This document shows, piece by piece, positions 7,461 to 8,362 of a DNA stretch of 64,000 nucleotides (position 1 is the stretch's first letter; each line of letters opens with the position of its first letter). The notes beneath the pieces were generated by a model, which made no database searches, was not told where the DNA came from, and was given only the letters and a program-made list of their open reading frames with translations. Made by a program: the position numbers and the translations under genes. The DNA lies in NCBI RefSeq assembly GCF_036507355.1, contig NZ_AP027877.1; one strand, given 5' to 3'. Source of the DNA: Escherichia coli (GTDB taxonomy: Bacteria; Pseudomonadota; Gammaproteobacteria; Enterobacterales; Enterobacteriaceae).

Positions 7461-7733
7461 TTACAAATAGAGATAGTTCGGCAGTTCTCCTGTTTTCCCT
7501 AAAAGAAGAGCGCTACGCCCAGGAATGTTGATATTTAGAGTTCCGCCTTTAAGCGTAAATACTTTACCAGGGGGAATACTTTTGCGTGTATTATTAATAA
7601 TAATGTTAACGCTATTACTCCCCATATTTTTATATATTCCTGGTTGCAATTTGTTAGGCCAGGTACCTTCAATTTCTTCGTTTCCTTTATTTATTATAAC
7701 TAGTCCGTCATGAGGAGAGTGATTAATATTCAC
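7461..7733 (-). other. Small ORF (GTG start) in a different frame just downstream of the IS1-split gene; possible frameshifted tail or separate small gene
   Basis: ORF track 90 aa; frame offset by one relative to upstream ORF 7811-8284; no recognisable motif. Confidence 0.3.
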
Positions 7734-8362
7734 AGAATCCCCACGACTAAAGACCAGAATGTTTTTAGTTGCAAATACACCCTCAAATGCGCTCCATATT
7801 CCTTCTTTATCTATATATAATGCGTGGAATTCATTGTAGAGCTGCTGATAGGTAGAGCAACCTTTATTAAGCCACGCCCACCGCCGACACGCGTGGACCC
7901 ATCATCATTTTTAATCTCAGTCGTTGATTTTAATACCTGACCATCCCAGTAAACTAAAGGCCTGCTGAACGGGAGAGCGGCCATATATGCCATTGCTAAT
8001 TGTTCATCTTGTTGATGGTTAAATAGAAAGTCATTGAAAAGATTGCCATTGTTAGGAAAATCGTGGTTAATGTTAATCAATATCCGTCTTTCTGATGGGA
8101 TGCTTGAGATTGTGGAACCCGGTTTTGATGCAAGGGTTTGGAGATCGCCACCAAATGAAAAGGCTTTTATCGTCTTCATGAGCAATGAAAAATCAATGGC
8201 GCTTAAATCATCTCTTTCATAAAGTAGCGATGACATTTGTTGTTCATCCAACTGGCAAGTTACCAGATATTCCATGTAATTCATAACGGCTTTTTCATGA
8301 TATTTTGGGTGATGCTGCCAACTTACTGATTTAGTGTATGATGGTGTTTTTGAGGTGCTCCA

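What the first reader, a model, noticed from the sequence alone, without database searches (positions are those of the whole stretch)
7461..7813. Frame break at the 3' end of the IS1-split gene
The upstream frame stops at TAG 7811-7813. A further 90-codon ORF with a GTG start follows immediately in a frame offset by one (7461-7733) and ends right before a strong hairpin (7430-7453). This could be a frameshifted C-terminal domain of the same gene, meaning a second inactivating lesion, or an independent small gene.
Basis: seen in the sequence. Interest (0 to 1): 0.3.

Follow-up and report, generated by a model that had tools for sequence, protein, structure and literature searches.

The report
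Frameshifted tail of a dead amylase gene
The small 90-codon reading frame is not a gene of its own but the displaced end of an alpha-amylase-like gene (ygaQ type) that this E. coli strain has broken twice, by an IS1 insertion and by loss of one base; this is ordinary gene decay.

Summary
On the minus strand a ygaQ-type alpha-amylase-family gene starts at 10488, is split by IS1 (8308-9075) after codon 471, and stops at TAG 7813-7811. A 90-codon GTG frame (7733-7461) follows in another frame, then a strong hairpin (7450-7423).

Intact E. coli alleles of this gene are 750 codons long and read straight through. The window differs from them by a single indel: the A of GAG (Glu612) is missing between 7879 and 7878. 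That is 66 nt upstream of the TAG and not in a homopolymer. Twenty-two out-of-frame codons follow. The true C-terminal frame (7877-7464, codons 613-750) stays open. The GTG is Val661, 12 residues inside the Pfam Alpha-amylase_C domain. Distant homologues (35-39% identity, 700-800 aa) are colinear through the break.

The deletion is absent from all 4,028 complete E. coli genomes that carry this stretch, so it is private to this lineage or, less likely, an assembly error. The gene is decaying across E. coli: about 2,390 genomes carry an amber codon at W614.

Interest is low.

The parts
9076..10488 (-). 5' fragment of the ygaQ-type alpha-amylase-family gene: ATG at 10488, codons 1-471. It holds the putative nucleophile motif GLRYDAAKH (D436). 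The called ORF runs on for 26 codons into IS1 (8995-10488, 497 aa).
8308..9075 (+). IS1, 768 bp, with ends GGTGATGCTGCC... and ...GGAGTCATTACC. insA is at 8363-8638 and insB' at 8557-9060. It is inserted after codon Tyr471.
8300..8307 (.). Target-site duplication ATATTTTG. The second copy is at 9076-9083.
7879..8307 (-). Middle fragment of the gene in its original frame: the duplicated codons 469-471, then His472 to Gly611. The called ORF starts at Met477 (8284). It holds the NHD motif (region IV-like).
7878..7879 (-). Site of the frame break. The A of GAG (Glu612, gene nt 1835 of the intact allele) is missing between these two bases.
7811..7879 (-). Twenty-two out-of-frame codons (GRGLIKVALPISSSTMNSTHYI), then the premature stop TAG at 7813-7811.
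7464..7877 (-). Displaced true C-terminal frame, codons Ala613-Leu750 (138 codons), with no stop. The Pfam Alpha-amylase_C match covers about 7769-7500. The natural stop TAA is at 7463-7461.
7461..7733 (-). The 90-codon GTG ORF of the finding. It equals Val661-Leu750 of the intact protein and is annotated as hypothetical protein BED21281.1 in the source record.
7423..7450 (-). Terminator-like hairpin 10 nt after the natural stop codon (11-bp stem, 7 G-C pairs, loop of 6), conserved in intact alleles.

Best explanation
The 90-codon ORF is the last 90 codons of one ancestral 750-codon gene. That gene is an AT-rich, horizontally acquired, ygaQ-type member of the alpha-amylase (GH13-like) family lying between a tRNA gene with a CAT anticodon (annotated tRNA-Ile in related genomes) and glaH.

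In this strain the gene is a pseudogene with two independent lesions:
1. IS1 is inserted after codon 471. This separates the putative nucleophile Asp436 from the rest of the barrel.
2. One base is deleted, the A of GAG at Glu612, between 7879 and 7878.

After the deletion a ribosome would read 22 wrong codons and stop at TAG 7813-7811. The correct C-terminal frame (codons 613-750, the all-beta Alpha-amylase_C domain) survives only as an open remnant in the -1 frame. ORF finders report the part after its first start-like codon, GTG = Val661. The hairpin at 7450-7423 is the gene's own terminator-like element.

What is shown: colinearity with intact alleles, the position and nature of the indel, and the domain content. 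What is inferred: that the deletion is a true mutation and not an assembly error, that neither fragment is functional, and the relative order of the two lesions, which is unknown.
For: - The reconstructed gene aligns with the intact O145 allele over 2,612 nt at 98% identity with a single gap at codon 612.
- The intact allele is annotated as a 750-aa protein in RM9872, FDAARGOS_497 and ECCNB12-2.
- Pfam Alpha-amylase_C spans residues 649-738 of the intact protein and residues 37-126 of the displaced frame at 28.3 bits. The 90-aa ORF alone falls below the cut-off (19.7 against 21.2) because its N-terminus is cut.
- The tail frame is open from 7901 and overlaps the upstream frame across the deletion site.
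- Distant full-length homologues P0047, P0048, P0049 and P0053 (32-39% identity, 699-806 aa) are continuous through the conserved GG[E/K/D]AW motif and the C-terminal domain.
- In 24 kb of the same window compared with the nearest complete genome there are 279 substitutions but only 4 indels, all intergenic. The assembly therefore does not scatter frameshifts.
- The nearest allele found (Logan SRR10870011, L005) lacks IS1 and also has a 1-nt deletion 2 nt away, giving the same shifted tail.
Against: - The exact deletion is seen in only one record. It is absent from 4,028 complete E. coli genomes carrying the stretch and from JGI metagenome contigs. The IS1-free 633-aa product it would give is not in the 15-billion-protein collection. 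So there is no independent confirmation that the missing base is real.
- The sister allele carries a different deleted base (T of GGT611), so it does not confirm this one by descent.
- Reads could not be checked.
Confidence: 0.85

Rival explanations
1. The missing base is an assembly or base-calling error in the deposited genome. The strain's gene is broken only by IS1, and the tail is in frame in reality.
For: - The deletion allele is unique to this record among 4,028 complete genomes.
- It is absent from JGI metagenomes.
- The frameshifted product (157 aa) and the IS1-junction product (497 aa) each occur on a single contig of the protein collection.
Against: - The lost base is an A flanked by G's (GTG[A]GGC), not a homopolymer-length error.
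- 24 kb of neighbouring sequence with 27 genes shows no indel in any coding sequence relative to the nearest genome.
- The closest allele from an independent sample is also frameshifted at this spot.
- The gene is already dead from IS1, so a further real lesion is unsurprising.
Confidence: 0.1
2. The 90-codon ORF is an independent small gene, a stand-alone beta-domain protein with its own GTG start and terminator.
For: - It is called as a CDS in many records: BED21281.1 here, S2870 in Shigella flexneri 2457T, and one identical-length variant seen on at least 1,000 contigs.
- A strong hairpin follows it.
- A weak GGGGA lies 5 nt upstream of the GTG.
Against: - Wherever it is called separately and the context was checked, an upstream lesion explains it: W614 amber in L004 and a 1-nt deletion in L005. 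The same amber codon is present in L001 and L003.
- Intact alleles and distant homologues have no break there.
- The GTG lies 12 residues inside the Pfam domain, and the ORF alone scores below the Pfam cut-off.
- No sigma-70-like site was found on the minus strand in 7200-8000.
- Short 'homologues' such as P0076 are further-frameshifted copies of the same pseudogene.
Confidence: 0.03
3. The frame change is bridged by programmed -1 ribosomal frameshifting, so a full-length C-terminal part is still made.
For: The correct frame is -1 relative to the reading frame, and the two frames overlap for 22 codons.
Against: - No X XXY YYZ slippery heptamer is present in 7879-7811, read directly.
- Intact alleles encode the protein in a single frame.
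- IS1 upstream has already removed the 5' 471 codons from the transcript or protein.
Confidence: 0.01

Closest known systems
ygaQ (with 'ygaR') of E. coli K-12: the alpha-amylase-family pseudogene next to a tRNA-Ile gene and glaH/csiD
   Same: - Same locus, with the order tRNA, gene, glaH-lhgO-gabD. About 96% nucleotide identity.
- Same 2,253-nt coding frame.
- Also a pseudogene, and also truncated just before the C-terminal domain (W614 amber, two codons from the deletion here).
- AT-rich, and described as H-NS-silenced horizontally acquired DNA (PMC7229825; GC 0.38).
   Different: - The K-12-type allele is broken by three TGG-to-TAG amber codons (W111, W346, W614) and has no indel and no IS1.
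- The window keeps all three Trp codons but has IS1 after codon 471 and a 1-nt deletion in codon 612.
- The 110-aa N-terminal K-12 fragment was reported to have nuclease activity when over-expressed (PMC4725251). Nothing here bears on that claim.
Intact 750-aa alleles (WP_000491455.1 in O145 RM9872, WP_022646006.1, WP_000491427.1)
   Same: 98% nucleotide identity over the whole gene and flanks, and the same terminator hairpin.
   Different: No IS1 and no deletion. A single reading frame runs from ATG to TAA.
S2870 of Shigella flexneri 2a 2457T and the many 90-aa 'hypothetical protein / alpha amylase C-terminal domain-containing protein' entries
   Same: The same 90-codon GTG ORF, called as a separate CDS. 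These entries belong to the same 90%-identity cluster (417 members).
   Different: They were produced by other upstream lesions, W614 amber in the one case checked (L004). The S2870 locus itself was not examined here.
Bacillus subtilis-type alpha-amylases (PDB 1BAG, 3DC0, 1UA7) and Ruminococcus bromii Amy16 (9QF9)
   Same: Weak but significant sequence matches (E 3e-7 to 1e-5) over the first barrel strands and the G-x-R-x-D-A-A-K-H nucleophile motif, plus a C-terminal all-beta domain.
   Different: - There is a roughly 215-residue N-terminal extension of unknown function.
- The Pfam catalytic-domain score is below the cut-off (18.4-21.6 against 22).
- Region I has NF instead of NH.
- No activity is known for the intact protein.

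Membership tests
Frameshift pseudogene of a known orthologue | Colinear with an intact orthologue except for an indel that is not a multiple of 3 | tested here: met
   There is a single 1-nt gap (gene nt 1835, codon 612) in a 2,612-nt alignment with the intact O145 allele.
Frameshift pseudogene of a known orthologue | Premature stop in the shifted frame, with the remainder of the protein readable in another frame | tested here: met
   Twenty-two shifted codons are followed by TAG 7813-7811. Codons 613-750 are open in the -1 frame at 7877-7464.
Frameshift pseudogene of a known orthologue | The indel is present in the organism, not only in the assembly | not testable with these tools
   No reads are available. 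Indirect support: there are no coding indels in 24 kb nearby, and the context is not a homopolymer.
Alpha-amylase family (GH13-like; Pfam PF00128 + PF02806) | C-terminal all-beta domain (PF02806) above the gathering score | tested here: met
   The intact allele scores 28.9 bits and the window's displaced frame 28.3 bits, against a cut-off of 21.2.
Alpha-amylase family (GH13-like; Pfam PF00128 + PF02806) | Catalytic (beta/alpha)8 domain (PF00128) above the gathering score | tested here: inconclusive
   Scores are 18.4 bits (intact) and 21.6 bits (window 5' fragment), against a cut-off of 22. PDB alpha-amylases match at E 3e-7 to 1e-5.
Alpha-amylase family (GH13-like; Pfam PF00128 + PF02806) | Region II motif G-x-R-x-D-A-A-K-H with the nucleophile Asp | tested here: met
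   GLRYDAAKH (D436) aligns with GFRYDAAKH and GLRWDAAKH of 3DC0 and 9QF9.
Alpha-amylase family (GH13-like; Pfam PF00128 + PF02806) | Glycoside hydrolase activity | not testable with these tools
   No biochemical data exist for the intact 750-aa protein. Only the 110-aa K-12 fragment has been studied (PMC4725251).
IS1 | About 768 bp, imperfect terminal inverted repeats GGTGATGCTGCCAACTTACTGAT / GGTAATGACTCCAACTTATTGAT, insA and insB' frames, and an 8-9 bp target duplication | tested here: met
   The element is 768 bp at 8308-9075. It has InsA (91 aa) and InsB' (167 aa) ORFs and an 8-bp duplication ATATTTTG. The consensus ends are from my own knowledge.
Intrinsic (rho-independent) terminator | G+C-rich stem-loop directly followed by a U-run | tested here: inconclusive
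   The stem is strong (11 bp, 7 G-C pairs, dG -24, z -6.0). The tail ATATGTTTAG is T-poor, so the site passes the simple scan only just.
Independent small protein gene | Conserved as a separate gene when the neighbour is intact | tested here: not met
   In intact alleles and distant homologues the sequence is an internal part of a 700-806-aa protein.

The most novel reading that the evidence does not exclude
Codons 611-614 of this gene might be a recurrent break point rather than a random one. Three different lesions fall within 10 nt: loss of T in codon 611 in the sister allele, loss of A in codon 612 here, and TGG-to-TAG at codon 614 in about 2,390 complete genomes.

This could mean a local mutational hot spot. 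It could also mean selection to uncouple or remove the C-terminal beta domain, possibly with the 90-aa remnant expressed from one of the H-NS-repressed intragenic promoters of this AT-rich gene. The evidence here does not exclude this. It is equally compatible with one old amber polymorphism plus two chance events, one of them from a low-coverage contig.
Probability: 0.04. Interest if true: 0.35.

Novelty: already known. Interest (0 to 1): 0.08.

Why it matters
It matters little beyond annotation. The three CDS called here (VEE46_10490, VEE46_10500 and VEE46_10520) are pieces of one pseudogene and should be merged and flagged. The case is a clean example of how an accessory, H-NS-silenced gene decays by many independent routes across E. 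coli (IS1, amber codons, indels). It also shows why the same 90-aa 'hypothetical protein' recurs in thousands of records. It gives no new mechanism.

Tried and rejected
- **Same lesions in other complete E. coli genomes.** The 66-mer across the deletion has no match at or above 99% identity in 4,028 genomes. The 41-mer of the sister allele's deletion has no match. The IS1 junction is not found as one piece with the same element and orientation.
- **Frameshift tail in the protein collection.** A 42-aa query of the shifted tail found nothing. This is uninformative, because only cluster representatives are searched.
- **Exact look-up of the hypothetical IS1-free 633-aa product.** It is not in the collection.
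- **JGI metagenome contigs.** A scan with a pattern covering both deletion alleles gave 0 matches.
- **Short homologues as evidence for an independent small gene.** P0076 is a doubly frameshifted copy of the same pseudogene. P0104 and P0174 are fragments.
- **Programmed -1 frameshifting.** Rejected: there is no slippery heptamer, and IS1 lies upstream.
- **P0041 (633 aa, GDF81774.1).** Its length suggested the same frameshift, but it is an N-terminally shortened call of an otherwise in-frame allele.

Full report
**What is in the sequence.** On the minus strand a long ORF starts at ATG 10488 and runs into an IS1 element (called ORF 8995-10488, 497 aa). A 157-aa ORF (8284-7811) ends at TAG 7813-7811. 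A 90-aa ORF with a GTG start occupies 7733-7461 in a different frame.

IS1 is 768 bp (8308-9075) and is flanked by the 8-bp duplication ATATTTTG at 8300-8307 and 9076-9083. Ten bases after the TAA at 7463-7461 lies a strong hairpin at 7450-7423. It has an 11-bp stem with 7 G-C pairs, dG -24 kcal/mol and z = -6.0 against shuffles.

It overlaps the last 30 codons of the upstream frame.

**What it is.** The stretch 7300-8310 matches 4,224 of 5,426 complete E. coli genomes, always on the chromosome. It lies under a feature annotated 'alpha amylase C-terminal domain-containing protein' or 'alpha-amylase family glycosyl hydrolase'. The locus order is tRNA-Ile, this gene, glaH, lhgO, gabD.

In E. coli O145 RM9872 the gene is intact: 2,253 nt, 750 aa, WP_000491455.1. 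I removed IS1 and one copy of the duplication from the window. The result aligns with that allele over 2,612 nt at 98% identity with a single gap.

That gap is the missing A of GAG (Glu612, gene nt 1835), between window bases 7879 and 7878. The context is GGCGGTG[A]GGCGTGG. Downstream of it the window reads 22 wrong codons (GRGLIKVALPISSSTMNSTHYI) and stops at the TAG. The -1 frame from 7877 gives AWLNKGCSTYQQLYNEFHALYID... through to ...GELPNYLYL, which is residues 613-750 of the intact protein. The GTG at 7733 is Val661.

**Domain content.** Pfam places Alpha-amylase_C (PF02806) at residues 649-738 of the intact protein (28.9 bits, cut-off 21.2) and at the corresponding part of the window's displaced frame (28.3 bits). 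The 90-aa ORF alone starts 12 residues inside the domain and drops below the cut-off at 19.7 bits.

The catalytic-domain model PF00128 scores just under its cut-off. However, solved alpha-amylases (3DC0, 1BAG, 1UA7, 9QF9) match at E 3e-7 to 1e-5. The match includes the nucleophile motif GLRYDAAKH with D436. IS1 sits after Tyr471, between that motif and the downstream NHD motif, so by inference the IS1 insertion alone already destroys the enzyme.

**More distant homologues.** A full HMMER scan of 1.84 billion representatives found a narrow family: 18 proteins at E <= 1e-30, most of them E. coli fragments. There are four full-length distant relatives of 699-806 aa at 32-39% identity. All four are colinear with the intact E. 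coli protein across the break. Three of them keep the GG[E/K/D]AW motif that contains residues 611-614. All continue into the ...AFSRG...IINK... C-terminal domain.

**Is the deletion real, and how common is it?**
- No complete E. coli genome has the deletion. Of 4,028 genomes that match the 66-mer across the site, none reaches 99% identity, and the best have the extra base.
- JGI metagenome contigs contain neither this allele nor the neighbouring one.
- The window's three ORFs are exact matches to BED21281.1, BED21282.1 and BED21284.1 (locus tags VEE46_10490, 10500, 10520) from one E. coli chromosome of 4,643,937 bp. The 157-aa and 497-aa products occur on that contig only.
- Against an assembly artefact: the lost base is not part of a homopolymer.
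- Also against an artefact: in 24 kb of the same window (27 genes) compared with the nearest complete genome there are 279 substitutions and only 4 single-base indels, all intergenic.
- The nearest allele I could find (Logan contig from SRR10870011, L005; 19 differences in 2,614 nt) has no IS1. It carries a different 1-nt deletion two bases away (the T of GGT611), giving a 633-aa product with the same shifted tail. That allele is also absent from complete genomes.

I rate a real mutation at about 0.85 and an assembly error at about 0.1. Only reads can settle it.

**Context: a gene in decay.**
- The exact 41-mer with TAG at codon 614 occurs in 2,386 complete genomes. The TGG version occurs in 1,165 (1,537 with one further mismatch allowed).
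- The K-12-type allele has three TGG-to-TAG codons (W111, W346, W614). ATCC 8739 has W614 amber plus a 1-nt insertion.
- Among four genomes with TGG at codon 614, two have the gene intact, one (O157:H7) is 'frameshifted; internal stop', and one lacks the 5' end.
- This explains why the same 90-aa ORF is called as a separate 'hypothetical protein' so widely. Its cluster has 417 members, one variant is on at least 1,000 contigs, and S2870 of S. flexneri 2457T is a member.
- The gene has 38% G+C against 54-58% in the neighbouring core genes. The literature treats it as H-NS-silenced, horizontally acquired DNA with spurious intragenic promoters (PMC7229825).
- A paper on the 110-aa K-12 N-terminal fragment reports nuclease activity on over-expression (PMC4725251). 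That concerns the other end of the gene and is not tested here.

**Rivals.**
- An independent small gene is rejected for the reasons above. In addition, no sigma-70-like site was found on the minus strand in 7200-8000. Apparent short homologues are further-damaged copies of the same pseudogene.
- Programmed -1 frameshifting is rejected. There is no slippery heptamer in 7879-7811, intact alleles use one frame, and IS1 has already cut the gene upstream.

**Verdict.** The finding is an ordinary second lesion in an IS1-disrupted pseudogene of a known, frequently pseudogenised accessory gene. The only mildly curious point is that three different lesions (loss of T, loss of A, W614 amber) fall within codons 611-614. 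With two of them seen once each, this is not evidence for a hot spot.

Noticed in passing
window 8307/8308; L008:2551/2552 (NZ_AP027829.1): In E. coli 2017.17.03CC another IS1 isoform (IS1B-type end, opposite orientation) is joined to this gene at exactly the same nucleotide (...ATGATATTTTG|GGT...). There the 5' part of the gene is lost. Eight further complete genomes have an IS1 350-630 bp away in the same gene. The site looks like a recurrent IS1 target in AT-rich DNA.
   Followed up: partly
window 8284-8330 and 9076-9110: The IS1 insertion point (CCAAAATAT|CATGAAAAAGCCGTTATGAAT) lies inside the 'ygaQ 1.1' fragment used in PMC7229825 as an H-NS-repressed, AT-tract-dependent intragenic promoter.
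   Followed up: no
L005:2423-2436 (Logan SRR10870011), equivalent to window 7873-7886: The closest allele to the window's has no IS1. It has a different 1-nt deletion (T of GGT611) two bases from the window's, plus a C-to-G change 15 nt upstream. Whether this is an independent event, a complex mutation or a low-coverage assembly error is unresolved.
   Followed up: partly
L003:1599-3851 (HST04, K-12-type allele); L001 (ATCC 8739): All three stops in the K-12-type allele are TGG-to-TAG (W111, W346, W614). W614 amber is present in about 2,386 of 5,426 complete genomes. ATCC 8739 adds a 1-nt insertion at gene nt 2138.
   Followed up: partly
window 11874-13223 (+): ypjCB (DUF5507 + DUF5508, 449 aa) is intact here and in O145 RM9872, but is a pseudogene in ATCC 8739 and HST04.
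   Followed up: no
window 14030-18832: Downstream of ssrA (18918-19280, minus strand) lies a P4-type integrase (17522-18832). It is followed by a short serine-recombinase ORF (16400-17239, 279 aa; the Recombinase domain looks cut) and a 542-aa AIDA-repeat ORF (14030-15658) that looks like a fragment of the ypjA autotransporter. This is probably a decayed island with more pseudogenes.
   Followed up: no
window 20000-44000: The best complete E. coli genome is only 98.8% identical over 24 kb of core genes (recN to clpB). The source strain is therefore not close to any of the 5,426 complete RefSeq genomes searched. An IS4 copy at 37937-39265 is shared with the best hits.
   Followed up: no
window 1780-2037 (-): There are three tandem naRNA4 (CssrE, REP-derived) matches between the genes at the left end of the window.
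   Followed up: no
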